This document shows, piece by piece, positions 4,348 to 45,748 of a stretch of DNA of 64,000 bases. How positions within the stretch are numbered: the stretch's first letter is position 1; every line of letters starts with the position of its first letter. Source of the DNA: Alphaproteobacteria bacterium (GTDB lineage: Bacteria; Pseudomonadota; Alphaproteobacteria; RF32; CAG-239); contig JAEEYV010000027.1 in assembly GCA_016288295.1 (NCBI GenBank), forward strand, positions 7,797 through 71,796, written 5' to 3'. Made by a program: the position numbers and the translations under genes. The notes below the pieces were generated by a model, which was not told where the DNA came from, did no database searches, and worked only from the letters and a program-made list of their open reading frames with translations.

Positions 4348-6399
4348 TTGGCGGAAGATATCATAACTACTGCTACTTTCGGGCAGTCAACAAACAGCGA
4401 TAAAGAAGAAGAACCTATCATTATCGCGCAACGTTTTTTGAACATCTTCCGTCAATTACACATCTTCAGCAAAGAAAAGAAAGAAGAGTTTAATAACCAG
4501 CTTCTGAAGCAACCTAAAGCTATACGCAAGTGTTTAAAAACTTTGCCCGGCGGTTCTGTTTTGTTGGAATATATGGATGATCTAGAACGTGGAGATGAAG
4601 TTGACGATACAGATGCTTCAGGTGCTGAAGAAACAAGTATAGTTGCAGAAGCTTCTCAAGATATTGAGCAGGCTAAGTCGGCAACAAATGTTACTGTCAG
4701 TGCACCGATTATTGATAGTGATAATTTTGCAAAAGTATTAGCCAATAGTTTGGCTCAATCGAACGCTCAGATTATTAAGGAGTTGCGTAATGTCCCTAAT
4801 TTTAAGGCTCCAAAAGATAAACTTGAAGCCGAGCAACTAAAGCTTGTAGCTGATGAAACTTTTACAAAAACTATCTCAAATGCTTTGGCAGAAGCGATTT
4901 CCGCATCTGAACAGAAGCGGCAGGAAGATAGTAAGCTTATTACTCAGTCTTTTTTAGAACTGCAAGAAAATCTGAATAAGATGATTGAGCAGAATAATCA
5001 GATTAAGATTATATCTAATAGTGATGCTCCGGCAGAGGCTGCTACGGCTTTTCAAATCAAAAATGTAATTGATGATCTGGTAAAGGCTCAATCAAAATTT
5101 TTGAAAGAAACGACACAATCTCAAAAAGAAGAATTGTCTGCCCTTATTTCTCTAGCTATACAAGACAGTATAAAATTATCAACTCAGTCGTTGATTGATA
5201 GCTTCAAACAATTAGATGAAGATGGTCCAACACCGATTACATATGCAGCATCTTCTCCCAAAAAACAGGCTATGTTGGAAAATGTTACTGAGGCTTTAAA
5301 GGTTCAAGGACGTGAATTTTCCTCGATAATAGCATCGACGCTAAAAGAGAGCCAGCAAAATTCTGCCCAAACAATTATTCAGACTATTGAAAAATTGAAA
5401 GGGACGTCGGTACTATCCGGTGATACGAAGCCTCAAGTGGAAGAAATTATGAAGATGCAAGCTGATTTATTCCGTGAAATAACGCGTTCACAAAATCAGG
5501 AATTTTCAGCAATCATTACTTCTGCTTTAAGAGAAAGCCAACAACAATCTACGAATGCAATAATTACTGCATTATCACAGATGAAAGGTCTTGCAGTACA
5601 GATGCCCGAAGCTCGACCTTCGGTTGAAACAAAAGCGGTGCCTGAACAAATTGAGGAAATTAGCATTGATGACGCTAGTTCTCTTAAACCGGAGATAGGG
5701 ATTTCACCTGAAAAAGATTACACCGTTAAAGATAGTGATGTTGATACTGTTGCAACCGATGTTGAAACGCTTGTTGCTAAGAAGAAAAAGAAGAAGAAAA
5801 AGAAAAAGAATCGTGAAGAGCAATTAGTGATTCCTCCTATTGAAAAAGATAGCCAAACACCAATCCTTGATAAACCACTGCAAAAGAAAAAGACTATAAT
5901 TTCGGCTTTGCCGGAAATGCCTGTAGTAGAAGATAAGCCTGTTGACAATGCAGCTGATTGGGGGTTTGGTAGCGTAAACGAATCACCTGCTCCAGCTAAA
6001 ATTATAGAGCCTGAAAGCAACGTATCTTCAAAAGAGCAGGAATATGCTTCTGAAGGTGACGGTTGGACATGGGAATATCAGCCCGAAGAACCTGTTGCAG
6101 AAGAGGTTGCCGGTAAAGAAGGACAAGATTGGGAATGGGAATATGAAGAAATTCCTGAAGAACAACCTAATAATGAGCTGTCTGGGACCGAAGGACAAGA
6201 TTGGGAATGGGAATATGAAGAAATTCCTGAAGATGAACAGACAGTAATAGATGAGAATCCACAGGAAGTCACACCACAAGAACAAATTGTTCAATCTTCT
6301 GAAATTATTGCATCAAAAGACTTTGAGCTTATATTGGTGGGTGCGGATAACGACGAGGAAGAAGATCCGTATTTTTATACCGTTAATAGTGTGGGATAA
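4348..6399 (+). CDS. Highly acidic repeat protein with a poly-Lys tract and tandem Trp-acidic motifs; function unknown (candidate secreted substrate)
   Basis: TTG start, 683 aa, no signal peptide or TM segment. Three ~55-aa helical repeats (…EFS(S/A)II(A/T)S(T/A)L(K/R)ESQQ…). K10 run at nt 5779-5808. EGQDWEWEYEEIPE occurs twice, plus a degenerate GDGWTWEYQPEEP. Confidence 0.55.
   Translation: MAEDIITTATFGQSTNSDKEEEPIIIAQRFLNIFRQLHIFSKEKKEEFNNQLLKQPKAIRKCLKTLPGGSVLLEYMDDLERGDEVDDTDASGAEETSIVAEASQDIEQAKSATNVTVSAPIIDSDNFAKVLANSLAQSNAQIIKELRNVPNFKAPKDKLEAEQLKLVADETFTKTISNALAEAISASEQKRQEDSKLITQSFLELQENLNKMIEQNNQIKIISNSDAPAEAATAFQIKNVIDDLVKAQSKFLKETTQSQKEELSALISLAIQDSIKLSTQSLIDSFKQLDEDGPTPITYAASSPKKQAMLENVTEALKVQGREFSSIIASTLKESQQNSAQTIIQTIEKLKGTSVLSGDTKPQVEEIMKMQADLFREITRSQNQEFSAIITSALRESQQQSTNAIITALSQMKGLAVQMPEARPSVETKAVPEQIEEISIDDASSLKPEIGISPEKDYTVKDSDVDTVATDVETLVAKKKKKKKKKKNREEQLVIPPIEKDSQTPILDKPLQKKKTIISALPEMPVVEDKPVDNAADWGFGSVNESPAPAKIIEPESNVSSKEQEYASEGDGWTWEYQPEEPVAEEVAGKEGQDWEWEYEEIPEEQPNNELSGTEGQDWEWEYEEIPEDEQTVIDENPQEVTPQEQIVQSSEIIASKDFELILVGADNDEEEDPYFYTVNSVG
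6118..6233 (+). repeat. In-frame 72-bp-period direct repeat (44 bp perfect) encoding EGQDWEWEYEEIPE
   Basis: gaaggacaagattgggaatgggaatatgaagaaattcctgaaga occurs at 6118-6161 and again at 6190-6233. Confidence 0.9.
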
Positions 6400-8982: not shown

Positions 8983-9951
8983 TTAAGTAACTTCGGTAAC
9001 CGCACGCAGGTTGCCATCGCGATTGATTTGTACAACTCGCAATTTATGATGCATTTCTTCTATAGTTTTGCGGCGATCAAGTGTCGGGTATGAGTGCAAT
9101 ATACGATCAGCAAAAGCTTCATATGCAGCACTGGAACTTTCAGCGTGAATGGTTGCCAGGCAGTTATCATGTCCTGATCCCATAAGCTCCCAAATTGCAC
9201 CGGCGTTGCCGGTTGAAATTTCACCGCCAATAATAGCATCTGGGGTAAAACGAACTACCAAGTCAATAATGCCTTTGTAGTCAAACTGGTTAGTTTGTCC
9301 GGTACGAGACATTACGATATGGACACGATTGGGATGTGGAACTAAAAGCTCGCGTGCATCTTCAATCGTAATAACACGTTTGTGAATATCCAAAATCTTA
9401 AGCAGGTTGTTCAAAAACGTGGTTTTACCAGTTGCTGTCGCGCCACTGACCAGAATGTGATCACCGCGTTTGATGCTAAGCAAAAGACGCTCATACGGAT
9501 CTTCTGGATCTTTTATGTTTTTCAACGGGTTAATATGGTGTAATTGCTCACCTTGTTTTAATCCATAGTCTCCAAGACCAAAAGCAACATCATCACTATG
9601 AACACGGATGGCAATAGCCACGCCTCCGGCGATATCGTCTTCATCATACATTACGTTCTTGCCGCATATAGCTGAAAAACGGTGTTCTCCGGGAATGGTA
9701 GCATAAACTACGGGAGTGCCACCAATCGGGTCGAATGGAAGTTCATATGTGTTTGCAACAATGTAAAGAAGGTCGGTCAAATATTCCTTGGTTAGTTTTT
9801 CGTCTTTGTACATAACCCAAGGATAGGCTCTTTTGCCGCGAAGGCGCAACCATACCTGCCCTGAGCGATTGATTGCAACTTCCTCAATGTTTTCCTGATT
9901 ATACCAGTAAGCCAGAGGGCGTAAAACTGATTCTAATACTTCAAAACTCAT
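8983..9951 (-). CDS. virB11: VirB11-family T4SS traffic ATPase
   Basis: 322 aa. Walker A VSGATATGKTT, then RVITIEDARELL, and His-box-like CLATIHAES. SD gggaga upstream of the ATG. Last gene of the T4SS operon. Confidence 0.85.
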   Translation of the reverse strand: MSFEVLESVLRPLAYWYNQENIEEVAINRSGQVWLRLRGKRAYPWVMYKDEKLTKEYLTDLLYIVANTYELPFDPIGGTPVVYATIPGEHRFSAICGKNVMYDEDDIAGGVAIAIRVHSDDVAFGLGDYGLKQGEQLHHINPLKNIKDPEDPYERLLLSIKRGDHILVSGATATGKTTFLNNLLKILDIHKRVITIEDARELLVPHPNRVHIVMSRTGQTNQFDYKGIIDLVVRFTPDAIIGGEISTGNAGAIWELMGSGHDNCLATIHAESSSAAYEAFADRILHSYPTLDRRKTIEEMHHKLRVVQINRDGNLRAVTEVT

Positions 9952-9963
9952 ACTTTTCTCCCT

Positions 9964-12900
9964 CTAAAACAGTTGTGGAACATCGCTGTCTTCTTCATTG
10001 TTTCGATTGTTCTGGTTGTTGTATCTGCTACTGTTGCTTTGTGACGGCGGTGGCGGTGGCGGGGTAGCTCCAACGTTGGTTCTCCCCTGGTTATCCGGAG
10101 CATATGTTACTGGGGCAGAAACCAGTGCAGGAGAAGAATCACCACTTGAAGAGTTACGTTCTTCTCCGTGTAATTTTTTATAATCCTCTTCCGTAAATAA
10201 AGAATTTTCATATTCATGACTTTCATTAGCTCCTCCTTTTTTGGCTTCATCACGAAAATCATCCATGGTTTTAAGCCATAAATCAACTTTAGGAAAAACA
10301 ATAATTCTGGTGCCGGCAGGAACAACTACGACAGATTTTGTCTTCATGTAATCATTAAGCATATCCTCAAACATTTGTTTGGTGTCGTCTAAGAAATTTT
10401 GTCGTGCATCATTGGTGGCCTGTTGTTTTGAAGTTTCAGAGCTGTTTTCTCCTCCTTTAGAACTGTCTTCGGTTGAGAACAGAACACTTATGCCATTGGT
10501 AATAATTGATGTTACTAACGGCGTTGAATATTTTTTAACCAGTTGACGATCCAGATAACCCAATACCCCTCCTCGACCTTGAGCATCGCCAGTTTTAGCC
10601 GAACTCAAATCAAACATAACACCTTTAGGAGTAATCAATCTTTCCCAGATAATACTGATACGAGCAGAATTCTGACCTCCACTCTCTCCTCCGGTACTAC
10701 CGATTAAATGACTACCAGCAGGGATAATAACGTTTCGACCATCTTCAGCATATACGTTACGTTCAACGTAGGCAGTAACCGGTGCCTCATGTTCAGTATC
10801 AATAGGTCTTGAAATTACTGCCGGAATCGGTTTGTCAGCTAAAATCATCATATCCATATCAACCGGAAGGGTTGAAACAACCTTAGCAATTCCCCAATCT
10901 TTTTGTTTGCCATCAAAATATTCACGACTGAAAGTAGTACTTTTTGAACCGACAAACATACCTTGGCGACGAATTGCTTGGGCTTGTTGATTTGCAACTT
11001 GTTGTCCCGGTGTAGCAGGCGTTTGTTCAAGGCAATCATCACCGAGGCCATGTGCTTCGCAATATCCCTTATTTCCAGGAACAAAGACATTTGATGCTCC
11101 GGGTTTTGGAGCTACCGGTGTTCCGGGTTCTTCCGGCACCTCATCTAAAGGAATTCTTATACGACGTCCGCGAACTTCTCCTGTCTCAGGATCATGCACA
11201 AGATCTCCCTCCACAACGCCTTCAATTTTTCCGGTTTTAGGATTGATTACTTTATCTTGCACAATATCACCAAGATAATTTCCATTTAAATCAAGAGCAA
11301 TATTTGCAGAACGTTTATAATCTCTTTCTTCCAGAGGACGACTACCAACTTTCGGAAGGGGTTCAGAAGAAGATGGTTTTTCTTTTTCGGGATGTTTGAA
11401 CCAATCAAGATGACCGATTACAACTCCGCTTGCATCAACAGCTTTTCCGTCTTTTTCAAGAATTGCAACAATATTTCCATTCTCATCGACAACTTGTCCT
11501 TTCCCATTGTCATATCCCATTGGATTTCCTTCTTTATCATAGACCAGTTTTCTTTTATCAGGTATATAATATTGTAACGGAGTAGCTTTAGCAATAATCT
11601 CCCCCTCCGGATTGATAATATTTCCCTCTTCACCAAGGCTTCCGACAACTTCACCGGTTTGTGAAATTACGTTACCATTTAGCATTAACTCACCAATGAT
11701 ATCATTGTTTTTATTACGTATATGAAAATCACGATTTCCGCGCCCCAAAAGTTCCTGTGAATTGCTTACGGCAAAACCGTGAATTGATTTGGCCAAGTGT
11801 TGATTTGAAAATGATATAATCCCACCGTCAGGGGCAATATAACCTATTGCATTGTTATTGTCGTTATATACGTAAATATCATACAAAGCGTAGCCTATGT
11901 TTTTGTTACCGGACTTAACATTTCCATCAAAATCAACTGAACCTATATTTTTGCCCTGGGAGTCAATAACTTCGCCTTTGTCATTAACTGTTCCCATTAA
12001 TCTGTTAGCATTATTAAAAGCATACCTGTATCTGAACAACATTCCTAAATGAGAGGATGTTTTTGAGTTAACACTATCATCCGGCATAACGTATCCAATA
12101 TCCTGATTATTGTTGTCGATAACTCTACCGTCTAACATACTGCGCCCGACAATTTTATTGTTGAAATCAATAACCGGAACAATCGATACTATTTTGCCGA
12201 TGAGAGATTTTTGCTTATTATAAAGACGGTTTTGACTGTTAATACAGCCGAGATTATCATTTGCATAATTAAGGACACGACCGTCAGATGATGTTGTCCC
12301 GACAGGTTTACCGCCAAAATCAATAATAACTCCGCGAGAAACACCAAAGCCGATAATCGCACCATTATCAGAAATCACTTGAGAATTAGGTAATATTCTA
12401 CCCATATTAACCTCACGGTAGTTCTTAACCTCACCTGTCGGCGTAATTGTTCCAACTAATTCGCATTTGTCATTAACTACTGACATAAAATCAACAGCTT
12501 CACCAACAGCAGCACCACTGTTATCAAAAATTATGCCACTTGAGTTGACTTTGCCGATTGTTGAAGCTCCACTATCCTTGACTTGTCCTTGATTATCTAT
12601 AATGCCAATTATTTTTCCGTCATATGACATTGCCAGACGAGCCGGAGAGCCAAAACCATTAACCGGCATATATGAAGCTTTTTCAGACCAAGCAACAACA
12701 CTATTATCAGGCAATACCTTGCCTATGGGGTGCAATCCTTTATTTAAAACCTGGTTTCCGTCTGCCAAAATGCCTACACTTTGTCCAGTAGAGGTAACTG
12801 CATAAACAGTATTGATTTTACCTCCAAGTACGGAATTATGTTCGTCAATATTGTAACCATATTGGGTTAGATGTCCTCCTTGAGATATCCCGTTGTTAAT

Positions 12901-14274
12901 AATATCACCATTAGGCGAGATTGCACCGACAGATTTTCCTCCAAGGTCAAAAATTGAACCGAGAGAAAATGCGTTACCGTCTATTTTACCATCTGAGGTA
13001 TAAACATATCCAAGCGGTGAAATTATGCGGTTGTCATTACCGACGGATATTGTGCTATTAATACCGGTGATTCCAAGTGCTTGGTTGTTACCATTAAATA
13101 TAACTTTATTTTTTAAGACTGCACCTATAATGCTTCCGCTACTACTAACTGCGAAATCACCTCGTATTGTGCCTAAAGGAGCACCACCAACAGTTACGAC
13201 TTGTCCATTTTTAAGAGAATGACCTCGCAATTCTCCGCGATAATCAAAAATTGGACCTGTTTGAATTAGTTGGCCAATTTGTTTGCCTTCTTTGTCATAT
13301 ATAACATTCCATGGACCAAGCTGTCCTATAATATCTGTACCTTTAGCAATCTTTCCTTCCGGCATAACCCGACCTAAATATTGTCCGGAACTATCTGCCG
13401 CAGTTGATGCAATATCGACCATAAAACCTATTATATTGCCTTTTGTATCAGCAATATTTCCATCAGATTGGAGATAACCGATTAATTTTTCACCATTGAT
13501 TACCTCACCATTAAATGTAACCAATCCAATATATTTTCCGGCATTGCTAAATGCGTATCCTGAACGAACTACACTACCGATAACTTTATTGTCTGAATTA
13601 TATGCAAGGCCGTTTGCCTTAATAAAACCAATCTGTTTGCCATCAAAATCAGTTATTTTTCCGCCCGGAGAAACGTTGCCGATAAATTTTCCTGCTAAAT
13701 CAATAACCATTTTTGAGGAAACAAGGCGTCCATCTAAAACGTAATCATTACCTGAACGTCTGTAAGCATATCCGTCAGATGAAACAAAACCTATATTTTG
13801 CCCTTGAAGGTTGGTATATACACCGTCCCCTGTAAGCCGTCCTACCGTTTTGCCGTCATCTGCATAAATCAGCCCAGGAAATAATACTGCACCTAAAATA
13901 TCAAATTTTTCATCAACAACCAAGCCATTAGGAAGAACTTTGCCGACAATTTTTCCGGTTGCCAGGCGTACAGCTCCGTCAGAGCTAACTTTTCCCAACA
14001 TACGATTATCATTACCTATGGCAACACCTTGCGGAACAACACCGCCGATAAGTTTGCCGGATGAGTTAAGAATCAAACTATCTGCCGTAATATTCCCAAT
14101 AAGGCGATTGTCAAAACTTACAACTTTGCCATCTGGAATAACTTTTCCAATTAATGCACCATTAAAATCAATAGCAGTAATTTCTTGTGCCGACGCAAGG
14201 TTAACATTGGCAAAAATCATTGCAAAAACAAAAAGCAATATGTTTTTAAATTTGCTGTTTACCTTTGACGTCAA
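9964..14274 (-). CDS. virB10: Giant VirB10 homolog: signal/anchor, ~900 aa of D-x-x-G-x-x-I-G repeats, Pro-rich linker, VirB10/TrbI C-terminal domain, and a Pro/Asn-rich tail
   Basis: TTG start 8 nt after the SD ggagg. VirB10 core at about nt 10270-10960 (…IIPAGSHLIGSTGG…GDAQGRGGVLGYLDRQLVKKY…TRIIVFPKVDLWL). Pro-rich segments (EKPSSSEPLPKVGSRP, EEPGTPVAPKPG). Repeats at about nt 11390-14190. Confidence 0.8.
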   Translation of the reverse strand: MTSKVNSKFKNILLFVFAMIFANVNLASAQEITAIDFNGALIGKVIPDGKVVSFDNRLIGNITADSLILNSSGKLIGGVVPQGVAIGNDNRMLGKVSSDGAVRLATGKIVGKVLPNGLVVDEKFDILGAVLFPGLIYADDGKTVGRLTGDGVYTNLQGQNIGFVSSDGYAYRRSGNDYVLDGRLVSSKMVIDLAGKFIGNVSPGGKITDFDGKQIGFIKANGLAYNSDNKVIGSVVRSGYAFSNAGKYIGLVTFNGEVINGEKLIGYLQSDGNIADTKGNIIGFMVDIASTAADSSGQYLGRVMPEGKIAKGTDIIGQLGPWNVIYDKEGKQIGQLIQTGPIFDYRGELRGHSLKNGQVVTVGGAPLGTIRGDFAVSSSGSIIGAVLKNKVIFNGNNQALGITGINSTISVGNDNRIISPLGYVYTSDGKIDGNAFSLGSIFDLGGKSVGAISPNGDIINNGISQGGHLTQYGYNIDEHNSVLGGKINTVYAVTSTGQSVGILADGNQVLNKGLHPIGKVLPDNSVVAWSEKASYMPVNGFGSPARLAMSYDGKIIGIIDNQGQVKDSGASTIGKVNSSGIIFDNSGAAVGEAVDFMSVVNDKCELVGTITPTGEVKNYREVNMGRILPNSQVISDNGAIIGFGVSRGVIIDFGGKPVGTTSSDGRVLNYANDNLGCINSQNRLYNKQKSLIGKIVSIVPVIDFNNKIVGRSMLDGRVIDNNNQDIGYVMPDDSVNSKTSSHLGMLFRYRYAFNNANRLMGTVNDKGEVIDSQGKNIGSVDFDGNVKSGNKNIGYALYDIYVYNDNNNAIGYIAPDGGIISFSNQHLAKSIHGFAVSNSQELLGRGNRDFHIRNKNNDIIGELMLNGNVISQTGEVVGSLGEEGNIINPEGEIIAKATPLQYYIPDKRKLVYDKEGNPMGYDNGKGQVVDENGNIVAILEKDGKAVDASGVVIGHLDWFKHPEKEKPSSSEPLPKVGSRPLEERDYKRSANIALDLNGNYLGDIVQDKVINPKTGKIEGVVEGDLVHDPETGEVRGRRIRIPLDEVPEEPGTPVAPKPGASNVFVPGNKGYCEAHGLGDDCLEQTPATPGQQVANQQAQAIRRQGMFVGSKSTTFSREYFDGKQKDWGIAKVVSTLPVDMDMMILADKPIPAVISRPIDTEHEAPVTAYVERNVYAEDGRNVIIPAGSHLIGSTGGESGGQNSARISIIWERLITPKGVMFDLSSAKTGDAQGRGGVLGYLDRQLVKKYSTPLVTSIITNGISVLFSTEDSSKGGENSSETSKQQATNDARQNFLDDTKQMFEDMLNDYMKTKSVVVVPAGTRIIVFPKVDLWLKTMDDFRDEAKKGGANESHEYENSLFTEEDYKKLHGEERNSSSGDSSPALVSAPVTYAPDNQGRTNVGATPPPPPPSQSNSSRYNNQNNRNNEEDSDVPQLF

Positions 14275-14276
14275 TT

Positions 14277-17200
14277 TTAGTTCCTCCGATTTTTTGCTAC
14301 TTCTTGCAAAGCATATCCGGCAACACGTTTATCCAGATTAATAAATGAGCCGTTACTCTTCATATACCCGATAATTTTATTGTTGGTATCAACTACTGAT
14401 CCGTCAGAGGCCAGGCGACCAACGTATCGACCGGTATTACCGAGAATAGTGGTTCCAATTTTATAAATACGCCCCAAAATTTCATCTTCGTTATCTACCG
14501 CTAAATCGGTTGATAAAACTCGACCGATGACAGATCCACGATGATCAATAACCATGCCATTGGCTGCAATATAACCAACAACTTTGTCCTCATTGTTTAT
14601 AACTAAATCACCATCAACGATTTCACCTATAAGTTTTCCTGAATTATTGAGCACATTACCGTCAGACAAAGATCTACCCATTTTTATGTTCGTAGTATCG
14701 ATAATTGAACCGTCAGGCATAACCGAGCCAACAACTTTTCCGGCAAAATCAATAACTGTTCCACGTTTAGCAAGACTCAAGTTCTTATCTGTAGAACCTC
14801 CGGGAAGAATAGCTGTTATGTTTTTACCATTTAAATCAATGACATCTCCGACCGAGTTTGTGTAACCCTTGTAAGATCCCCAAACATCCATAACAATTCC
14901 TTCGGGAATTATCTCTCCGATTATAACAGATTTGTTATTCAAAACCTTGCTATCAGGAGTGCTACGACCAACGGTTTTTCCATCAAGAGCAATTATGCGA
15001 CCATCAGATAAACCATAACCAAGGAAGGAACCATCATAACCTATTGCTGACCCTCTTCTTATAATGCCACCTTTAAGATTGCCTTTGTTGTCAAAATAGT
15101 ATCCTTTGGCATCAAGGCGACCGAGTTTTTCACCAAAACGATTTATTACTTCACTATTATAAACTGCCATACCTATGATTTTGCCACTAAAATCAGCAAC
15201 TTTTCCGGTAAATGCTTGGTACCCAGGAACATTATTGTAAAATGCGGCGCCATCACCATAAAGCTTACCAACAGATGCACCTTTACCATCGTAAACATTG
15301 CCGTCAGGAAATAAATGCCCTAATATTTTGCCCTGGTGATCAATTAGTGTGGTTCTGTTCGGCATTGCAACGCCAATAATTTTGCTGTTTTCATCAATAA
15401 CAGCATTGTTAGGCAACAAACGCCCCGAAGTCTGTCCACGGATAGGGACACGTGCTGCAGAATTAACCATACCGATAAAGTTACCTTCTAAATCGTAGGC
15501 ATTGGTGTTTTGCAGTATATGACCAATGTACGCACCTTTTTTATCAAAAATGTCACCATATGTGCCAACACAACCAACCGGTTTGGCTTGTTGCGACAAA
15601 ACAAGACCGTTCTCGTTTACCAGACCCAACAGGTTACCATCATAAGAAACGGCAACTCCTGAACGGGCAACTCCACCTATAATATCACCTTTTTCATTTA
15701 ATACTGTACCATCAGGATTAATGCAACCAACGTAGTTGCCATTTTGGCGGACTATGCCATCGGTTTCAACTTCGCCGATTTTGGTACACGAATCGTCAAA
15801 AACAGGACCTGGAACTACAACTTCACCAATATAATTACCACTTTCATCAACTACTATGCCATCGACATTAACTTTATAGCCGGTTTCTTGATTTGATTTA
15901 CGAACAATACCGTCTTTTTCAAGATACCCAATATTTTTGCACCCTTGGCCGACTACAAGACCACCGCGGACCATACGTGCAACAATATTGGAGCCATTAG
16001 GATTTTTTACCAACCCATTGGATAATACTCTACCTACAATCTGCTTTTGACTATTCTCAATTGTACCATTATTGTTAACAATTCCAAGTACTTCTCCTTT
16101 GGGAGTAATAGGTATCATTTGGTCTTGAACAAGATGTCCGACGATATTAGACGTATTAGTCACTATACGACCGTCTGCATCTATTGAACCAATGACATTA
16201 CCGTTGACATCAAAAACTTCACCATCATTTCCAATATAACCGGTAATTTTGTTGTTTTTATCCAACAGAAGTTTGGCAAAATCGCCAACCTCTCCTATTT
16301 CTTGTCCATCAGCAGTAATAATCTTGCCTGATGGGGCCATTTTTCCTAAAACATTGCCGTTAAAATCAATTGCATTGCCATTTTCATCAACATAACCGAT
16401 AACTTTACCGCTTTTGTCGTACGCCAGTTGTTTGGGAGTTGTACCCGTACTGCCAATAATCCTCCCATCGTCATCAACTACCGTACCATCATTAAGTAAT
16501 TTACCAATTTTATTACCGTCAAAATCATGGACAACACCTTGATCATCAACATATCCAATAGCATTACCTTTTTGACCGTAAGCAAGGCGATATCCTTGTT
16601 CTTTGGTATCACCAACTTTACCGATTACATTACCTCTGTCATCAACAATCGCACCGTCTTCAAGTAACTTACCGATTTCTCTACCGTTCACATCGCGGAC
16701 GGAACCTTGATCATCAACAAAACCTATGATTTTGCCATCAGGACTATATGCCAGACGGTAATTTTTCTCATTATCACCACCGGATTTACCAATTACATTG
16801 CCTCTGTCATCGACAATCGTACCGTCTTCAAGTAACTTACCGATTTCTCTACCATTCACATCATGGACGGAACCTTGATCATCAACAAAACCTATGATTT
16901 TGCCATCAGCATCACGAGCGAGATGAAATCCTTTTTCGTTAATTTCTCCGGCCTTTCCGATAATATTACCTTCATTATCAACAATTGAACCATCGTTACG
17001 CATATTGCCAATTTCTTCACCATTTATGTCATATACAATACCGTTATCATCAATATAACCTATGTTATTGCCATTGCTATCATAAGCTAAAGCTTTAACA
17101 TTTGATTCATTATCAACATTAGCTATAACCTTGCCATTTGCATCAACAATCGCCCCGCCAGAAGATACTTTGCCGACTACTTTGCCATCAAAATCATGAA

Positions 17201-19187
17201 CATCACCATTTTCATCGACGTAACCAATGGCGTTGCCATCATTATCATAGGCTAATGCTTTGATGTCAGATGTTTTGCCAACATTGGCTATAACTTTGCC
17301 GTTTGCATCAACAATCGCCCCGCCAGAAGATACTTTGCCTATTGTATTTCCTTTGAAATCATGGACTTCTCCATCTTTATCTACGTAGCCTATAACTTTG
17401 CCATCATTATCATAGGCTAATGCTTTGATGTCAGACGTTTTGCCAACATTGGCTATAACTTTGCCGTTTGCATCAACAATCGCCCCGCCAGAAGATACTT
17501 TGCCGACTACTTTGCCATCAAAATCATGAACATCACCATTTTCATCGACGTAACCAATGGCGTTGCCATCATTATCATAGGCTAATGCTTTGAACTTTGA
17601 ACTTTTATCGCTATTGGGGGCTGCATGACCAATAACATTGCCTGCTCCATCAACAATGGTTCCATTTGAAGAAACCGTACCTATTTTTTTGCCGTCAGCG
17701 CCAATAACATTATTTGCATTATCAACATATCCTATAACTTTTCCGTCATTATCATAAGCCAACAAAGCGCCAGAAGTTGTTAACTTATTACCGTTTTTAT
17801 CAATTATTGTTCCGTCAGGACGAATCCTTCCTATAGAATTGCCTTGAAAATCACGGGCTGTACCATCGTCATCAACATAGCCGACGACTTTACCAGAAGA
17901 ATCTCGAACTAATTTGCGGTCAACACTACGTGACGGATTTTTTTTGCTTGCAATAACATTGCCATTTTTATCAACACTACCGACGATTTCTCCGTCAGCA
18001 TCGACTACTGTGCCATCAGGCATGACAACGCCGACTATATTGCCGTTTTCATCGACCGCTACTCTGCCGGTTTTATTAACGTGTCCTATGGTGCTGCCAG
18101 TACTATCAACAACTTCCCCTTTATCGTTTAACCGTCCTATAACGTTATCACTCATATCGGTTACAGTACCGTCAGCCATAACTTGTCCGATAATATTGCC
18201 AGCATCATCGTAAACATATCCCATGTCAACAGCACGTCCGATAACATCACCATCATTATTGACTACCGTACCATCAGGCAACATGCGACCGGTAACATTA
18301 TTATTAAGGTCAACTACCGAACCATCGGGATTAACATAACCTATGACGTTGCCTTTATCATCAAAAACCAATTTGCGATTGTTGGCAATTCCAATAATAT
18401 TGCCTTCGCCATCAATAGCCAGTCCGGTTTCATTAATACGACCGATAACATTGCCTTTATCATCGTGGACATAACCACTTTCGTCTGCATATCCGATAAT
18501 TGTGCCATCGGGGCCAACTACGGCTCGGGTCATTGTTTTGCCGTCTGTGCCGGAAGAGAACTTGCCAGAAGATGTGTCTTCTATTGTTTCACAAAAATTG
18601 CAGTCTTCTTTAGTTACAGCATTACCATAAACCGGAACTTTTGCAGACTTTGAACTTGTTTGTGCAAGGTGGGTTTCGTGCCAGGAAATAATGAAATTAT
18701 TTTGGACGTTTCCTGTAACTACTGGTGTCCAAGACATAGTAATATCACAAGTTTCGGAACCATGAAGCGTTTTGCCGGAACATTTTTCTGTATATTTAAA
18801 ACCATCAAAAGGGGCTTCGGCTAGTTTAACTTCTGTTATATTTATAGAAGCTTTACCATTTGTACCGACAGTTAAAACATTTTTGGCATCAGTTCCTACA
18901 AGGACTTGTCCCAAGGGGACAGGATTGGGTGTTGTAGTTATTGGGGGAGTACCATCATCCGGTGTAGAAAATTGAATTTCAGCACTAGGAGCAGTAGTAG
19001 TTTCGTCCGGAAAAGCGGTATCATTTTCAGGAAACTCAATAGAAGCTTCATCTTTTTTATCTCCGTTTGAAAACAGGAGATAAACGCCCAACAGAAAAAT
19101 AATAAAAGAAGTGATACCAACCGCAAGAATTATGCGGTTGGTCTTTTTTATGTAACTTTCCGAATGTGTTAAAACTTCTTTACTCAT
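14277..19187 (-). CDS. 1636-aa membrane-anchored repeat protein (N-terminal TM, Ig/ASH-like Cys-containing domain, then ~1400 aa of the repeat also found in VirB10); T4SS-associated, function unknown
   Basis: The ATG overlaps the virB9 stop (ATGA at 19184-19187), and the stop lies 2 nt before the virB10 start. TM segment IILAVGITSFIIFLLGVYLLF. Repeats resemble VDENGNIVGVVMPDGTVVDADGEIVGSVDKNGNVI throughout. Confidence 0.75.
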   Translation of the reverse strand: MSKEVLTHSESYIKKTNRIILAVGITSFIIFLLGVYLLFSNGDKKDEASIEFPENDTAFPDETTTAPSAEIQFSTPDDGTPPITTTPNPVPLGQVLVGTDAKNVLTVGTNGKASINITEVKLAEAPFDGFKYTEKCSGKTLHGSETCDITMSWTPVVTGNVQNNFIISWHETHLAQTSSKSAKVPVYGNAVTKEDCNFCETIEDTSSGKFSSGTDGKTMTRAVVGPDGTIIGYADESGYVHDDKGNVIGRINETGLAIDGEGNIIGIANNRKLVFDDKGNVIGYVNPDGSVVDLNNNVTGRMLPDGTVVNNDGDVIGRAVDMGYVYDDAGNIIGQVMADGTVTDMSDNVIGRLNDKGEVVDSTGSTIGHVNKTGRVAVDENGNIVGVVMPDGTVVDADGEIVGSVDKNGNVIASKKNPSRSVDRKLVRDSSGKVVGYVDDDGTARDFQGNSIGRIRPDGTIIDKNGNKLTTSGALLAYDNDGKVIGYVDNANNVIGADGKKIGTVSSNGTIVDGAGNVIGHAAPNSDKSSKFKALAYDNDGNAIGYVDENGDVHDFDGKVVGKVSSGGAIVDANGKVIANVGKTSDIKALAYDNDGKVIGYVDKDGEVHDFKGNTIGKVSSGGAIVDANGKVIANVGKTSDIKALAYDNDGNAIGYVDENGDVHDFDGKVVGKVSSGGAIVDANGKVIANVDNESNVKALAYDSNGNNIGYIDDNGIVYDINGEEIGNMRNDGSIVDNEGNIIGKAGEINEKGFHLARDADGKIIGFVDDQGSVHDVNGREIGKLLEDGTIVDDRGNVIGKSGGDNEKNYRLAYSPDGKIIGFVDDQGSVRDVNGREIGKLLEDGAIVDDRGNVIGKVGDTKEQGYRLAYGQKGNAIGYVDDQGVVHDFDGNKIGKLLNDGTVVDDDGRIIGSTGTTPKQLAYDKSGKVIGYVDENGNAIDFNGNVLGKMAPSGKIITADGQEIGEVGDFAKLLLDKNNKITGYIGNDGEVFDVNGNVIGSIDADGRIVTNTSNIVGHLVQDQMIPITPKGEVLGIVNNNGTIENSQKQIVGRVLSNGLVKNPNGSNIVARMVRGGLVVGQGCKNIGYLEKDGIVRKSNQETGYKVNVDGIVVDESGNYIGEVVVPGPVFDDSCTKIGEVETDGIVRQNGNYVGCINPDGTVLNEKGDIIGGVARSGVAVSYDGNLLGLVNENGLVLSQQAKPVGCVGTYGDIFDKKGAYIGHILQNTNAYDLEGNFIGMVNSAARVPIRGQTSGRLLPNNAVIDENSKIIGVAMPNRTTLIDHQGKILGHLFPDGNVYDGKGASVGKLYGDGAAFYNNVPGYQAFTGKVADFSGKIIGMAVYNSEVINRFGEKLGRLDAKGYYFDNKGNLKGGIIRRGSAIGYDGSFLGYGLSDGRIIALDGKTVGRSTPDSKVLNNKSVIIGEIIPEGIVMDVWGSYKGYTNSVGDVIDLNGKNITAILPGGSTDKNLSLAKRGTVIDFAGKVVGSVMPDGSIIDTTNIKMGRSLSDGNVLNNSGKLIGEIVDGDLVINNEDKVVGYIAANGMVIDHRGSVIGRVLSTDLAVDNEDEILGRIYKIGTTILGNTGRYVGRLASDGSVVDTNNKIIGYMKSNGSFINLDKRVAGYALQEVAKNRRN
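16430..17595 (-). repeat. In-frame tandem DNA repeats inside the 1636-aa gene: three 165-bp units (17101-17595) and about four ~168-171-bp units (16430-17100)
   Basis: 103 bp are identical at 17161-17263 and 17491-17593 (330-bp offset); including the preceding 30 bp (17131-17160 vs 17461-17490, one mismatch) gives ~133 bp. ttgccgtttgcatcaacaatcgccccgccagaagatactttgcc recurs at 165-bp spacing. The 16633 and 16801 units are near-identical (168-bp offset). Confidence 0.9.
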
Positions 19188-20785
19188 TGTGTCCTAACTA
19201 CGCTACAAAATACACCACTTCTACCAAGACGACTGCAAACACCATCGCCTTCTTCAAGAGATTTGACCGGTCCTATACGGAGATGGAACAGTTCTTTACC
19301 CTGACCATCCGCCGGTGCATCAACAGAAAAGAACGGATCATACTTGCCAAGAATCTTGGAATGTTTATTTGATACATCATCCCATAAATTTTCCAGATTT
19401 TCGACATTGGCATCAGTTCCCAATTCTATGGAAATATTTGAACCACTACTGTCTACAAAGCCTGAACCATATCGATATTGATTAGCGATAGATGAGGCCG
19501 CAGGGTCAAATTGTTGCGTATTCTGAATACGATGCATTTTTGAATAATCAAAGTCAGCCGCACCACCAGAGCCGGGGAACATGGCTCCCCCATTACCCAT
19601 ATCTTCACTATAATCTCCTGTCGGTTCATTGGCCGCGCCATTTACAGGACCGGAACTGAAATCAGGATATGAAGCTCCGCCGGCCTTTGATTGAGCGCCA
19701 GCCGGAATTTTTGCGCCACGGTCCCATTCTTTATCAGTAACATCTTTGGCGTAACTTGCATCTTCAAGTCCTGCGTCATCAGAACGACGAAGTTTAAGGC
19801 AAACAATCCTTTTTCCGTTTCTTAAAACCATATCGCCTATTCCCTCAACGATGATTAAGCGATTATTAGGGCCTTTAGTACGAAATCCGACTGGAACCTC
19901 CATTCTTTCAACAATGAGAGAAACAACCGGCCTTTGGGTCATATAAAGGGCTCTTTTTCCCAAATCAATGTATGTAAAAATGTCATCTCGCCATACTCGT
20001 TCGGGAGCGATGACAACATCATCTGCGTTGGGTACATAAACCTCAATATCAAAACGAAATTGCGTGGGATCAAGAGGAATGTTTTCGACCCAATTATTTT
20101 TTTGATCCCGTTTAGTAAAAGTTGAATCAACCGATTTTCCCCCTTTACCAAAATAAGACGTAGCATTTATTCGACCACCGCCGCCGGACGACATGGCTTT
20201 GGCGCCACCATTATTGCCACCGACCACGTCAATATCAACAATGGCATTGGTTAAACGTTCTGTATTAACGCCTTCACTGCGCGCATAAAAGACATAACGG
20301 TTGCCTGAGCGCCCAAAAACAACGATATTGGTATCAACACCGACATTAGCTCCGGCAGTTGGATAAAGCAATAAGGTATTAGGTCCGGAAATTTGCCCAT
20401 CAAATGTGGAATTATCACCAATATAAATATCTTCAACCATTTCCCACTCGGGAAAATTTATCAGTGTAATCATACCTTCACGCAGGCGCAAAGGCAAAAC
20501 TAAATCCGGAGACCAATAGTATTTCGAATAAGCCGGTTTGCTTTGGCCTTCGCCAAGATTTTGCAAAGGATCAAGCCAGGCACTTTGGATCATTCCCAAA
20601 GAGTTGAACCCCATGTAACTCATATCCATAGGTTGATACATTCCCTGCGATTGTGCCGTAGCCTGATCTGCTCCATTAGCCACGGATTGAGCATTGCTCA
20701 TTTCCGTAAACAGAAAACTGCTTAAAACAACAATTGCAGCCCCTGCACATTTAAAAAATATAGCTCTATTCATATTATTGTACAT
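19184..20785 (-). CDS. virB9: VirB9/CagX-family outer-membrane core protein with a C-terminal SPOR-like domain
   Basis: Signal peptide. VirB9 N-domain (PLRLREGMITLINFPEWEMVEDIYIGD…NIVVFGRSGNRYVFYARS). C-domain (VWRDDIFTYIDLG…LIIVEGIGDMVLRNGKRIVCLKL). The last ~80 aa end in …ELFHLRIGPVKSLEEGDGVCSRLGRSGVFCSVV. Confidence 0.8.
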   Translation of the reverse strand: MYNNMNRAIFFKCAGAAIVVLSSFLFTEMSNAQSVANGADQATAQSQGMYQPMDMSYMGFNSLGMIQSAWLDPLQNLGEGQSKPAYSKYYWSPDLVLPLRLREGMITLINFPEWEMVEDIYIGDNSTFDGQISGPNTLLLYPTAGANVGVDTNIVVFGRSGNRYVFYARSEGVNTERLTNAIVDIDVVGGNNGGAKAMSSGGGGRINATSYFGKGGKSVDSTFTKRDQKNNWVENIPLDPTQFRFDIEVYVPNADDVVIAPERVWRDDIFTYIDLGKRALYMTQRPVVSLIVERMEVPVGFRTKGPNNRLIIVEGIGDMVLRNGKRIVCLKLRRSDDAGLEDASYAKDVTDKEWDRGAKIPAGAQSKAGGASYPDFSSGPVNGAANEPTGDYSEDMGNGGAMFPGSGGAADFDYSKMHRIQNTQQFDPAASSIANQYRYGSGFVDSSGSNISIELGTDANVENLENLWDDVSNKHSKILGKYDPFFSVDAPADGQGKELFHLRIGPVKSLEEGDGVCSRLGRSGVFCSVVRTQ

Positions 20786-21506
20786 TATTTAACCTCAAAG
20801 AATAACTGGTTACTGTGAAGCCTGCCGGATTTTTCAGGCGTTCTTTATATTTAACTCTTTTGTGCCTATATGTTATTTTTAAAGAAGCAGTCCAGTATTT
20901 AATGATTGGCTCTTCTGCATCGGGGAACATATCACGAGTTTCGTATTCAACCTGCCAAATTCCCGTACTCAATTCGTTTGCTGTTACAATACGAACATCA
21001 CGAACCATATGACGTTCTTTAATCAACTCAAGAGCTCGACTAGCCGTGTTTTTTGAGAAATCATCATAGACAGTAGGAGATGACATTTCCTGAATAGCTC
21101 CGCCCGGAGACCATCTGGCTTCCGCCTCCAAGATGTCTTTATTAAAACTACTGCGCATTAAAACGTACTGACGAACAAAAACTTCAGTTATGCTTCTTAC
21201 TTCCGCAAGATTGCGTTTTAACGGTTGGATATTGTAGACTTGCTCTTCTTTGTTTTGGAAATTTAGCAGAAACGGCTCTATTCTGTGTAGCGGAATAACC
21301 TGAGATATTGCCAACAAAAGCACAATATTACAGCAGATGCTTACCGCCATAATGATAGCGAATGCGCGAGCCGTCCATAGATATCTTTTTTCGGCGACAT
21401 TAGCAACAAATACGTCTGATGATGAATACGAATCGCGCTTGCGACGAACACTGCTGTTGCCTAAAAGGCGCTGATTACTATTATTATTTCCTAACTGTTG
21501 AGCCAT
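20775..21506 (-). CDS. virB8: VirB8-family protein (paralog 2)
   Basis: Start moved to ATG 21506 (SD agggg 5 nt upstream). The track start at 21521 is TTG. N-terminal TM segment, then an NTF2-like periplasmic domain with FVRQYVLMRSSFN and WTASLKITY. Confidence 0.75.
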   Translation of the reverse strand: MAQQLGNNNSNQRLLGNSSVRRKRDSYSSSDVFVANVAEKRYLWTARAFAIIMAVSICCNIVLLLAISQVIPLHRIEPFLLNFQNKEEQVYNIQPLKRNLAEVRSITEVFVRQYVLMRSSFNKDILEAEARWSPGGAIQEMSSPTVYDDFSKNTASRALELIKERHMVRDVRIVTANELSTGIWQVEYETRDMFPDAEEPIIKYWTASLKITYRHKRVKYKERLKNPAGFTVTSYSLRLNNVQ

Positions 21507-21527
21507 GATAACCCCTAACAAAGCCGG

Positions 21528-21806: not shown

Positions 21807-22553
21807 TTAAAAATGAGCACGACTTTGACTGTATTTGGTAACGGTGAACCCCAGAGGATTAATCAAACGACGTCCCAAAAACAGTCTTTCAGGAATAAAA
21901 TATGCTATAACCGATGCTGTCCAGAAACTGGTATTAAGTGTTAGATATGAACTTCCGCTAGGGCGTGATACTTCATAAATTTTAAAATCGACTTTCCATA
22001 TTGGACTGGTTTGTCCACCAGCTCTTTGTGAAGATATGATTTCAACTTCTCTGTTAATCAATTTTTCCTTGTTTTTGCTTTCAATACCTTCACGTGTTTT
22101 ATTAAATTCTGTAAAAACTTTATTTGAAGATAAAAAATGAATGATTCCTCCCGGATGCCAACGAGATCTCATCTCCATAAAATCGTTAACATACGAGTTA
22201 CGATATATAATATATTGGCGAACAAATATCTCCATAAATTTGTCTTTCGAGGCCATATCATAGGCAATAGGCTCATATCTAACCGCGTCATCTGAACTAT
22301 TTTGGTTAATGATCAAAAACGGTTCCACCGAAACCATCGGAGCTAATTTAAATAAGGAAAGTGAAGCTGCTAAGAAAACTGCCAAAGAAACAAAAGCTGC
22401 AAAAATAAAAAAACGTGAAAGCCAAAGATAATAGTACGTCTTAACCCCGTATTTTTCTTTTTCGGACTGACCGAGAAAGTGGTAGGTTCTACCACTTTTA
22501 TCGGTCAAAGCCATTATTTTGGTGTTTTCAAGAATATTCCCTAATTTGCTCAT
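21807..22553 (-). CDS. virB8: VirB8-family protein (paralog 1)
   Basis: 248 aa. TM segment FFIFAAFVSLAVFLAASLSLF. FVRQYIIYRNSYV and WTASVIAYF parallel paralog 2. Confidence 0.75.
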   Translation of the reverse strand: MSKLGNILENTKIMALTDKSGRTYHFLGQSEKEKYGVKTYYYLWLSRFFIFAAFVSLAVFLAASLSLFKLAPMVSVEPFLIINQNSSDDAVRYEPIAYDMASKDKFMEIFVRQYIIYRNSYVNDFMEMRSRWHPGGIIHFLSSNKVFTEFNKTREGIESKNKEKLINREVEIISSQRAGGQTSPIWKVDFKIYEVSRPSGSSYLTLNTSFWTASVIAYFIPERLFLGRRLINPLGFTVTKYSQSRAHF

Positions 22554-38619: not shown

Positions 38620-38637
38620 GCCATAAAGGAAGTTGAC

Positions 38638-41302: not shown

Positions 41303-41315
41303 GCTTTGAAGCAAA

Positions 41316-42983: not shown

Positions 42984-42993
42984 GAGATAGTTT

Positions 42994-45441: not shown

Positions 45442-45551
45442 GTCATGCCTCTTTTTTAGCTTGCTAAAAAAGTCAAGGCATCTTCAATATTGTTTTTTAT
45501 TTTGTCATGCCTCCGAGCATGAAAATGCGAGGTCAAGGCATCTTCAATATT
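45442..45551 (+). repeat. Two tandem ~61-bp structured units (gtcatgcctc, inner hairpin, gtcaaggcatcttcaatatt, T-run)
   Basis: gtcatgcct occurs at 45442 and 45504, with a solo copy at 45385. gtcaaggcatcttcaatatt occurs at 45472-45491 and 45532-45551. atgcct/aggcat form outer stems. The inner hairpin of unit 1 is cttttttagc/gctaaaaaag. Confidence 0.8.
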
Positions 45552-45563
45552 TTTTTAAATAAG

Positions 45564-45671
45564 GTAGATCCCTGGACGATTTTGCAGGCAAAATCGAGGG
45601 ATGACTTTTTTGATTTTTATATAATACCGTAGATCCCTGGGCGATTTTGCAAGCAAAATCGAGGGATGACT
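45564..45671 (+). repeat. Two copies of a 43-nt palindromic element (REP/MITE-like hairpin), 65 bp apart
   Basis: gtagatccctggRcgattttgcaRgcaaaatcgagggatgact occurs at 45564-45606 and 45629-45671 (41/43 identical). Stem cgattttg/caaaatcg plus atccct/agggat. Confidence 0.85.
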
Positions 45672-45748
45672 ATTTTTTATTATTTAAGTGCTTGTTAAGA
45701 ATTGCAATGCTAAAAATGTGTATTGCTTATATAAAAAGGACTACCAAA

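What the first reader, a model, noticed from the sequence alone, without database searches (positions are those of the whole stretch)
16430..17595. Near-identical in-frame 165-bp cassettes inside the 1636-aa gene: a likely recombination or copy-number switch
Three 165-bp (55-aa) units sit in tandem at 17101-17595. Units 1 and 3 share about 133 bp with a single mismatch (103 bp perfect, 17161-17263 = 17491-17593). Unit 2 shares the 44-bp core. Flanking units of ~168-171 bp (e.g. 16633 vs 16801) are also near-identical at the DNA level. The rest of the repeat array is conserved only at the protein level. Such long perfect in-frame repeats are substrates for RecA-dependent or slippage-driven expansion and contraction. 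That is the mechanism by which cagY repeat rearrangement tunes T4SS function under immune pressure.
Basis: seen in the sequence. Interest (0 to 1): 0.65.

Follow-up and report, generated by a model that had tools for sequence, protein, structure and literature searches.

The report
Recombining repeat cassettes in split VirB10
A giant secretion-machine protein of an uncultured cattle-rumen bacterium contains near-identical 55-amino-acid DNA cassettes whose number really does differ between closely related strains, much as in the stomach pathogen's cagY gene, though any effect on function is unproven.

Summary
Three in-frame 165-bp units (17091-17585, minus strand) sit in a 1636-aa gene. The outer two share a perfect 127-bp block. 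The middle unit is identical to them except for a 58-bp diverged patch. A second pair of 168-bp units is 90% identical. All other units are saturated at synonymous sites.

The gene lies between virB9 and virB10. It encodes the membrane-anchored N-terminal half of a split giant VirB10, built from beta-hairpin ("beta-flower") modules.

The nearest species has one unit where the window has three. Same-species rumen assemblies (99.3-99.9% identical flanks) differ from the window only at these two clusters. One lacks the first cassette. Another carries an extra hybrid 168-bp unit, the product expected from unequal crossing-over.

Across 79 related species, 24 orthologues have exact repeats of 30 bp or more, and all 60 repeat offsets are in-frame. 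Three other species show indels of 52, 53 and 78 aa, about one unit.

Recombination-driven copy-number variation is therefore supported. A cagY-like functional switch is not shown, and immune pressure is an unlikely driver in the rumen. Every comparator is a short-read assembly, so long reads are needed.

The parts
14277..19187 (-). Gene 1. A 1636-aa protein with a short cytoplasmic tail, a TM helix (about aa 18-40), an Ig-like/ASH domain (about aa 88-171) and about 1400 aa of beta-hairpin (beta-flower) repeats. It ends in the conserved tail AKNRRN. It is the N-terminal half of a split giant VirB10.
   Evidence: ORF and translation. Pfam Bflower_2 4.6e-105, Bflower 2.5e-58, DUF3659 3e-47. N-terminal 200 aa align with residues 1-199 of the fused 2290-aa VirB10 P0036, E 3e-28. 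The same two-gene layout is present in the 72 of 79 species loci whose contig reaches gene 2.
17586..17762 (-). Unit U1 (aa 476-534, 59 aa). An old, diverged unit that flanks the cassette cluster.
   Evidence: It has a 1:1 orthologue in L016 (91% aa identity).
17421..17585 (-). Cassette U2 (aa 535-589), type A patch with linker GKTSDI.
   Evidence: It is absent from same-species contig L090.
17256..17420 (-). Cassette U3 (aa 590-644), type B. It is identical to U2 except for the 58-bp patch at 17340-17397 and one further base. It is the unit most like the single orthologous unit of the nearest species.
17091..17255 (-). Cassette U4 (aa 645-699), type A patch with linker DNESNV. It shares a perfect 127-bp block with U2 (17137-17263 = 17467-17593).
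16923..17090 (-). Unit U5 (aa 700-755). An old unit lying between the two young clusters.
16587..16922 (-). Units U6 (16755-16922) and U7 (16587-16754). A 168-bp pair, 90% identical, with exact blocks of 45 and 33 bp. This is the second recombination hot spot: there are three units here in L082 and L097.
16116..16586 (-). Units U8-U10 (aa 868-1024). Old units, each with a 1:1 orthologue in the nearest species.
9964..14274 (-). Gene 2, VirB10. It has a signal-like N-terminus, beta-flower repeats and a C-terminal TrbI/VirB10 domain. It shares no DNA-level repeats with gene 1 and shows no indels between strains.
   Evidence: Pfam TrbI 1.2e-32 and Bflower_2 2.6e-51. No blastn hit between the two genes. 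Gap-free alignment to L082.
19184..20785 (-). VirB9/CagX with a C-terminal SPOR domain, immediately upstream in the operon.
8983..9951 (-). VirB11-type ATPase, downstream in the operon. It was used as the anchor to find same-species contigs.

Best explanation
The cassettes are young copies of a 55-56-aa, three-hairpin structural module. They lie in the length-variable central array of a T4SS protein that is the inner-membrane-anchored N-terminal half of a split, giant VirB10.

Neighbouring modules share 30-130 bp of perfect DNA identity in the same reading frame. Misaligned homologous recombination (unequal crossing-over or gene conversion), and possibly slipped-strand misalignment, can therefore add, delete or hybridise whole modules. 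Every product stays in frame, so the protein changes in length and module composition rather than switching off.

Shown here:
- the repeat anatomy;
- its recent origin;
- expansion from one unit to three since the split from the nearest species;
- strain-level alleles with recombinant junctions;
- recurrence of the same behaviour across the family.

Inferred:
- the enzymology (RecA-dependent versus slippage);
- the rate of change;
- whether module number alters T4SS function.

My reading is ongoing birth-and-death turnover of modules in a weakly length-constrained spacer or exposed region, not a dedicated regulatory switch.
For: Anatomy and age of the repeats:
- A 127-bp perfect repeat and mosaic identity between units.
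- Differences between units are clustered.
- pS is 0.10-0.39 within the young clusters against 0.5-0.85 elsewhere.

Nearest species:
- L016 (79-85% aa identity in the flanks) is 110 aa shorter. Its units match the window's one to one, except that one unit stands in place of U2+U3+U4.
- U6 and U7 are as similar within each species (90% and 87% nt) as their orthologues are between species (88% and 86%). This indicates concerted evolution.

Same-species contigs (99.3-99.9% nt identity and collinear outside the array):
- L090 reads U1-U3-U4 and encodes 1581 aa, with only 3 substitutions elsewhere.
- L082 and L097 carry an extra 168-bp unit made of the U7 head and the U6 body, with private SNPs. 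This is the expected unequal-crossover product.
- Contigs break or carry gaps exactly at the cassettes in L088/L083, L095 and L097.

Across the family:
- 24 of 79 species have exact direct repeats of 30 bp or more in this gene.
- 60 of 60 repeat offsets are divisible by 3.
- All lie at 15-55% of protein length.
- Gene length ranges from 1102 to 3151 aa.
- Unit-sized indels occur within other species: 53, 52 and 78 aa.
- Length polymorphism tracks DNA identity. The length-invariant species P0001 has no exact repeat of 20 bp or more. The polymorphic species have repeats of 110, 87 and 64 bp.

Structure:
- The AF2 model gives six strands per unit, with the pLDDT minima at or next to the inter-unit linkers.
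Against: - All same-species comparators are short-read metagenome assemblies, which tend to collapse such repeats.
- The one-unit state in L088 (assembled with k=105, shorter than the 127-bp repeat) and the loss of the B unit in L082 could be artefacts.
- No independent assembly reproduces the window's three-unit arrangement.
- How the window itself was assembled is unknown.
- The A-type patch has no identifiable donor, so the order of events is unresolved.
- Four of the ten orthologue clusters read, each with 20 to 186 members, show a single full-length size in the members read. Turnover is therefore not fast everywhere.
Confidence: 0.78

Rival explanations
1. A cagY-like adaptive device. Recombination in the array is selected because changing module number or composition tunes T4SS activity or varies an exposed epitope. 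The pressure could come from host antibody, phage or target cells.
For: - The gene belongs to the VirB10 system and is homologous to the N-terminus of fused giant VirB10 proteins.
- Every rearrangement is in-frame, 60 of 60 offsets. The same was reported for cagY (PMC2194252 abstract).
- Variation is confined to a central region that is hypervariable in length between species, while the flanks are conserved one to one.
- Three or four different array structures appear among four informative same-species assemblies.
Against: - There is no functional or within-host data.
- The habitat is rumen or gut lumen, where T-cell-driven selection as in H. pylori is implausible.
- Many related species keep a single length across many samples.
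- Surface exposure of the array is unknown.
- The modules are beta-hairpins, unrelated to CagY's alpha-helical repeat modules (PMC2581425 title).
- In-frame-only repeats are also what neutral duplication inside a coding repeat would leave behind.
Confidence: 0.17
2. There is no biological polymorphism. The species has one fixed array, and the differences between contigs are assembly collapse, mis-joins or strain-mixture chimeras at a hard repeat.
For: - Contigs end or carry N gaps precisely at the cassettes.
- The L088 state equals a loop-skipping path through the 127-bp repeat at k=105.
- The L082 loss of unit B could arise at k=55 or below through the 68-bp shared block.
Against: - L090 joins the U1 linker directly to the B patch across only 31 shared bases in a k=127 assembly. 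That junction needs reads that a U2-first genome would not supply (inference).
- L082 and L097 contain an additional hybrid unit with private SNPs. Collapse removes copies; it does not create them.
- The one-versus-three unit difference from L016 and the unit-sized indels in three other species, each seen in several independent assemblies, cannot all be artefacts.
Confidence: 0.05

Closest known systems
Helicobacter pylori CagY (VirB10 orthologue with 5' and middle repeat regions)
   Same: - It is a T4SS component of the VirB10 system with a very large internal repeat region.
- It has many direct DNA repeats whose recombination always yields in-frame deletions or duplications.
- Strains differ in repeat content (PMC2194252, PMC5954226, PMC3585145).
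   Different: - Here the repeat protein is split from the TrbI/VirB10 barrel domain into a separate upstream gene.
- The modules are beta-hairpin 'beta-flower' units of 52-59 aa, not alpha-helical modules.
- Only two small clusters are DNA-identical, rather than an 'extraordinary number' of repeats.
- No link to function or to immunity is shown.
- The host is an uncultured rumen alphaproteobacterium.
Beta-flower fold families (Pfam PF21784/PF21785, clan CL0395; Durairaj et al. 2023, PMC10584680)
   Same: The repeats score far above the Pfam gathering thresholds. They carry the [DNEQ]xxG hairpin-tip motif described for the fold.
   Different: The described beta-flowers are small closed barrels of about 100 aa, made of 4-6 hairpins. 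Here about 1400 aa of hairpins form long arrays, and the evolutionary unit is three hairpins plus a linker. The paper does not mention a T4SS context in the passages read.
Tandem-repeat surface proteins with recombinational copy-number variation (e.g. streptococcal alpha C/Rib proteins, Anaplasma Msp1a, staphylococcal Sdr/Clf R regions; named from my own knowledge)
   Same: Long in-frame, near-identical DNA repeats encode whole structural modules. Strain-to-strain variation in copy number arises by homologous recombination or slippage.
   Different: Those are surface adhesins or antigens with many identical copies. This is a membrane-anchored secretion-machine subunit in which most modules have diverged and only 2-3 are young.
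Simple-sequence contingency loci (phase variation)
   Same: A repeat-mediated, heritable and potentially reversible change within a coding region.
   Different: Contingency loci use units of 1-9 bp that shift the reading frame on and off. The units here are 165-168 bp and always preserve the frame.

Membership tests
CagY-type recombining VirB10 | The protein is a VirB10 orthologue, with the TrbI/VirB10 C-terminal domain in the same polypeptide. | tested here: not met
   There is no TrbI domain in the 1636-aa protein. It is in the next gene, 9964-14274. The N-terminal 200 aa are nonetheless collinear with fused VirB10 proteins. So it is half of a split VirB10, not a full orthologue.
CagY-type recombining VirB10 | A large internal region of direct DNA repeats whose recombination products are all in frame. 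| tested here: met
   Units of 165 and 168 bp with exact blocks of 127, 68, 45 and 38 bp. All 60 repeat offsets across 79 orthologues are divisible by 3.
CagY-type recombining VirB10 | Strains of one species carry in-frame deletion or duplication variants of the repeat region. | tested here: met
   Window U2-U3-U4, versus L090 U3-U4, versus L082 U2/3-U4 plus an extra U6/7 hybrid. Caveat: all comparators are short-read assemblies.
CagY-type recombining VirB10 | Recombination changes T4SS function and is driven by host adaptive immunity. | not testable with these tools
   This needs isogenic variants and infection or functional assays. The rumen habitat makes this driver unlikely.
CagY-type recombining VirB10 | Alpha-helical repeat modules. 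| tested here: not met
   The AF2 model is all-beta, with six strands per unit. Pfam assigns the region to beta-flower families.
Beta-flower (Pfam CL0395: PF21785, PF21784) | A profile match above the curated gathering score. | tested here: met
   Bflower_2 scores 345.7 bits (cut-off 38) over 14 stretches. Bflower scores 195.9 bits (cut-off 25).
Beta-flower (Pfam CL0395: PF21785, PF21784) | A closed shallow barrel of 4-6 beta-hairpin petals. | tested here: inconclusive
   The model has three hairpins per unit and low inter-unit confidence (pLDDT 67, pTM 0.41). Closure could not be judged. The PDB fold search gave no meaningful match, with TM at most 0.2.
Phase-variable contingency locus | A short (1-9 bp) repeat tract whose length change shifts frame or promoter spacing. 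| tested here: not met
   Units are 165-168 bp and all variants are in frame.

The most novel reading that the evidence does not exclude
This would be a second, independently evolved CagY-like system. A whole clade of uncultured gut and rumen Alphaproteobacteria carries a giant VirB10, split or fused, of 1.1-3.1 kaa. Its beta-hairpin module array would be actively remodelled by in-frame recombination to vary the length or exposed face of the T4SS in response to phage, protist or host pressure.
Probability: 0.17. Interest if true: 0.75.

Novelty: new variant of a known kind. Interest (0 to 1): 0.55.

Why it matters
CagY has been described as the VirB10 orthologue that, unlike others, carries a large recombining repeat region (PMC5954226). 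Here a structurally unrelated beta-hairpin array in a VirB10-system protein shows the same in-frame, recombination-driven plasticity. It occurs in a widespread clade of uncultured gut and rumen Alphaproteobacteria, with at least 224 species-level genomes carrying the family.

Two consequences follow.
- It gives a natural comparison for asking whether repeat plasticity is a general way to adjust T4SS architecture.
- It places the recently named beta-flower fold in a concrete cellular machine.

On the practical side, this locus will be mis-assembled or collapsed in short-read metagenome-assembled genomes, so gene lengths in databases should be treated with care.

Tried and rejected
- **Metagenome scan for same-species contigs.** The tool failed with an error and the cap was consumed. 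I found same-species contigs instead by exact look-up of neighbouring VirB11, VirB8 and VirB9 proteins.
- **Exact look-ups that found nothing.** The window protein, the window VirB10 and the variant proteins are not on record.
- **The 1581-aa cluster P0001.** It looked like the one-unit-shorter allele, but it is a different species at 45% identity.
- **Apparent length variants.** P0204, P0144 and P0154 are truncations or alternative starts, not indels.
- **Donor for the A-type patch.** A search of the window and of 80 species loci found nothing above 80% identity.
- **A simple two-unit (330-bp) duplication.** Rejected because U5 is not like U3 and U1 is not like U3.
- **Recombination between gene 1 and the virB10 gene.** Rejected: no blastn hit, and the longest shared word is 16 nt.
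- **Structure-based annotation.** The first alignments were unusable because MAFFT stretched or overlapped the query. The 4-unit model is only moderately confident. The PDB fold and sequence searches gave nothing meaningful.
- **Literature.** Searches for RF32 or VirB10 repeat regions in gut Alphaproteobacteria found no papers.

Full report
**1. The observation**

The finding lies in a minus-strand ORF, 14277-19187, encoding 1636 aa. Tandem Repeats Finder reports one array at 17114-17593: period 165, 2.9 copies, 86% matches, score 792. This is by far the strongest tandem repeat in the window; the next scores 209.

The longest exact direct repeat anywhere else in the 64 kb is 44 bp.

I divided the central array into ten units, U1-U10, starting at aa 476, 535, 590, 645, 700, 756, 812, 868, 921 and 973. 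The three cassettes are:
- U2, 17421-17585;
- U3, 17256-17420;
- U4, 17091-17255.

U3 is identical to U2 except for a 58-bp patch (17340-17397, 20 differences) and one further base. U2 and U4 differ only from unit position 120 onward and in the linker (GKTSDI versus DNESNV). U6 and U7 (16587-16922) are 90% identical, with exact blocks of 45 and 33 bp.

Proportions of synonymous differences (pS):

| Unit pair | pS |
|---|---|
| U2-U4 | 0.10 |
| U2-U3 | 0.29 |
| U3-U4 | 0.39 |
| U6-U7 | 0.22 |
| most other pairs | 0.5-0.85 |

So the statement that the rest of the array is conserved only at protein level is correct. The differences between young units are significantly clustered (permutation P from 1.5e-3 to below 5e-6). 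That mosaic pattern is what gene conversion or recombination breakpoints leave.

**2. What the gene is**

Pfam assigns the protein to the beta-flower families: Bflower_2 at 4.6e-105, Bflower at 2.5e-58 and DUF3659 at 3e-47. There is a weak Ig-like/ASH match near the N-terminus.

The gene order on the minus strand is VirB4 (30414-32846), four ORFs of which three had no Pfam match and one only a sub-threshold one, two VirB8 paralogues, VirB9/CagX with a SPOR domain, this gene, VirB10 (9964-14274, beta-flower repeats plus a TrbI domain) and VirB11.

The first 200 residues comprise the cytoplasmic tail, the TM helix and the Ig-like domain. They align residue for residue with the N-terminus of 2.2-2.6-kaa proteins from other uncultured Alphaproteobacteria that end in a TrbI/VirB10 domain (E 3e-28). 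The 1636-aa protein is therefore the N-terminal, inner-membrane-anchored half of a split giant VirB10.

The split layout is a first gene ending ...AKNRRN followed at once by a VirB10 gene. The ...AKNRRN gene is present in 79 of the 80 species-level genomes retrieved, and the VirB10 gene follows it in the 72 loci that extend far enough. All 80 are gut or rumen metagenome-assembled genomes labelled Alphaproteobacteria, 'Azospirillum sp. 51_20', CAG:495, Ca. Scatocola and similar names.

The beta-flower fold was named only in 2023 from AlphaFold models (PMC10584680). No solved structure matches the protein by sequence. A four-unit AF2 model (pLDDT 67, pTM 0.41) gives six strands, that is three hairpins, per unit. 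Its confidence minima fall at or next to the inter-unit linkers. It found nothing meaningful in the PDB, with TM at most 0.2. Adding or removing one DNA unit therefore adds or removes one three-hairpin module.

**3. Comparison with the nearest species**

L016 (ruminal_MAG_253) is 79% identical to the window protein over the first 450 aa and 85% identical over the last 600 aa. It is 1526 aa long, exactly 110 aa (two units) shorter.

Unit-by-unit comparison gives one-to-one orthology for U1 and U5-U10. A single L016 unit corresponds to U2+U3+U4, and it is closest to U3 (83% aa, 81% nt). The triplet is therefore a one-to-three expansion in the window's lineage. It is much younger than the species split, or it has been kept homogeneous since.

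The U6/U7 pair exists in both species. The paralogues within each species (90% and 87% nt) are as alike as the orthologues between species (88% and 86%). That indicates concerted evolution.

**4. Same-species evidence**

Exact look-ups of the neighbouring VirB11, VirB8 and VirB9 proteins returned contigs from several bovine or rumen metagenome assemblies. Outside the array they are 99.3-99.9% identical to the window and collinear with it. Inside the array they differ only at the two young clusters:

| Contig (sample) | State of the array |
|---|---|
| L090 (ERZ941504, k127) | U1-U3-U4-U5-U6-U7; 1581 aa; a clean 55-aa deletion of U2; 3 substitutions elsewhere |
| L082 (ERZ28600338) | U1-[A-type unit with U3's linker variant]-U4-U5-U6'-[U7 head + U6' body]-U7: one cassette fewer and one extra 168-bp unit |
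| L097 (ERZ28600639, same biosample as L082) | the same extra unit, and a 100-N gap over the cassettes |
| L088 + L083 (ERZ27270630, k105) | one cassette, and a contig break inside U6/U7 |
| L095 (SRR15023605) | contig ends at the start of U2 |

The extra hybrid unit in L082 and L097 is exactly what unequal crossing-over between misaligned U6 and U7 would produce. It also carries private SNPs.

The adjacent VirB10 gene shows no indels and shares no DNA similarity with gene 1.

**5. How much of this could be an assembly artefact**

Short-read assemblers collapse repeats longer than k. The one-unit state in L088 (127 bp against k=105), and possibly the loss of the B unit in L082, could therefore be artefacts.

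Two features cannot easily be explained that way:
- L090 joins the U1 linker to the B patch across only 31 shared bases in a k=127 assembly.
- L082 and L097 contain an additional hybrid unit.

No other assembly reproduces the window's three-unit order, and I do not know how the window was assembled. Even so, U2 and U4 have different linkers and private SNPs, which argues against a duplication artefact.

**6. Generality across the family**

Among the 79 species-level orthologues:
- gene length ranges from 1102 to 3151 aa;
- 24 have exact direct repeats of 30 bp or more, 9 of 60 bp or more, and 3 of 100 bp or more;
- all 60 repeat offsets are multiples of three;
- all lie at 15-55% of protein length.

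The alignment shows conserved N- and C-terminal arrays flanking a length-variable centre.

Within clusters of other species at 90% identity, most have one length over many assemblies: 1581, 1370, 1266 and 2201 aa. Three show real unit-sized indels in the array:
- 1576 versus 1629 aa;
- 1310 versus 1258 aa;
- 2290 versus 2212 aa, in a fused VirB10.

The length-invariant species (P0001) has no exact repeat of 20 bp or more. The polymorphic species carry repeats of 110, 87 and 64 bp. Instability thus tracks DNA identity, as a homology-dependent mechanism predicts.

**7. Mechanism and verdict**

The best-supported reading is that the central array evolves by birth and death of three-hairpin modules. 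The process is misaligned homologous recombination or gene conversion, and possibly slippage, between in-frame near-identical units. It produces strain-level alleles that differ in module number and composition.

The cagY analogy also has a real structural basis, because the gene belongs to the VirB10 system.

The functional half remains inference. No rate, reversibility or phenotype is known. Several related species are length-invariant. The rumen habitat makes adaptive immunity an unlikely driver. Phage, protist or target-cell pressure, or simple weak constraint on spacer length, are alternatives. CagY's repeat modules are alpha-helical (PMC2581425) and its recombination is T-cell dependent (PMC5954226); neither applies here.

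I rate this as a new variant of a known kind: in-frame repeat plasticity in a VirB10-system protein, in a new fold and a split-gene arrangement. Interest is moderate to good. Long reads across 16.4-17.8 kb are the decisive test.

Noticed in passing
window 9964-19187 (minus strand); loci L001-L080: The giant VirB10 is split into two genes. Gene 1 has the TM helix, an Ig-like domain and beta-flower arrays, and ends AKNRRN. Gene 2 has a signal-like N-terminus, arrays and the TrbI domain. This holds in the 72 of 79 species loci that extend into gene 2. Other uncultured Alphaproteobacteria carry a single fused protein of 2.2-2.6 kaa.
   Followed up: partly
window 19184-20785 (minus strand): The VirB9/CagX homologue carries a C-terminal SPOR (peptidoglycan-binding) domain.
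   Followed up: no
window 20775-21521 and 21807-22553 (minus strand): There are two tandem VirB8 paralogues. In one same-species assembly (L087/L097) the second copy is called as two fragments of 158 and 96 aa.
   Followed up: no
window 179-3169 (plus strand): A 996-aa protein combines an M23 peptidase domain with a TrbL/VirB6-like region.
   Followed up: no
window 6118-6233 (plus strand, in ORF 4348-6399): A 44-bp exact direct repeat at offset 72 (in frame) encodes a duplicated acidic motif, GQDWEWEYEEIPE, in a 683-aa protein with no Pfam match. The same gene has an N gap in one same-species scaffold.
   Followed up: partly
window 45549-45686: A 65-bp tandem repeat, 2.1 copies and 87% matches, spans the start of the sulfatase-family ORF 45647-47482.
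   Followed up: no
window 36979-44103 (plus strand): A type IV pilus / T2SS-like cluster (secretin, PilO-like protein, T2SSE ATPase, T2SSF platform) lies next to the T4SS locus. Ribosomal protein S1 and tRNA-Ser lie further on. GC is uniform at about 39%, which indicates a chromosomal context.
   Followed up: no
L058 11709-17369 (VirB10 gene); also L072, L020, L041: Other species carry even longer perfect in-frame repeats: 591 bp at offset 588 in the L058 VirB10 gene, 196 bp in L072, 167 bp in L020 and 122 bp in the L041 VirB10 gene.
   Followed up: no
window 17175-17232 and 17505-17562 (A-type patch of U4 and U2): The A-type patch differs from the ancestral-like B patch at 20 of 58 positions. 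Its best match in the window or in 80 related species is at most 80% identical. Its origin (a lost unit, import from an unsampled strain, or rapid divergence) is unexplained.
   Followed up: partly
tool behaviour: The same-species variants of the 1636-aa protein, seen as called genes on public contigs, are absent from the protein search collection. Protein-level searches alone would have missed the strain polymorphism.
   Followed up: yes
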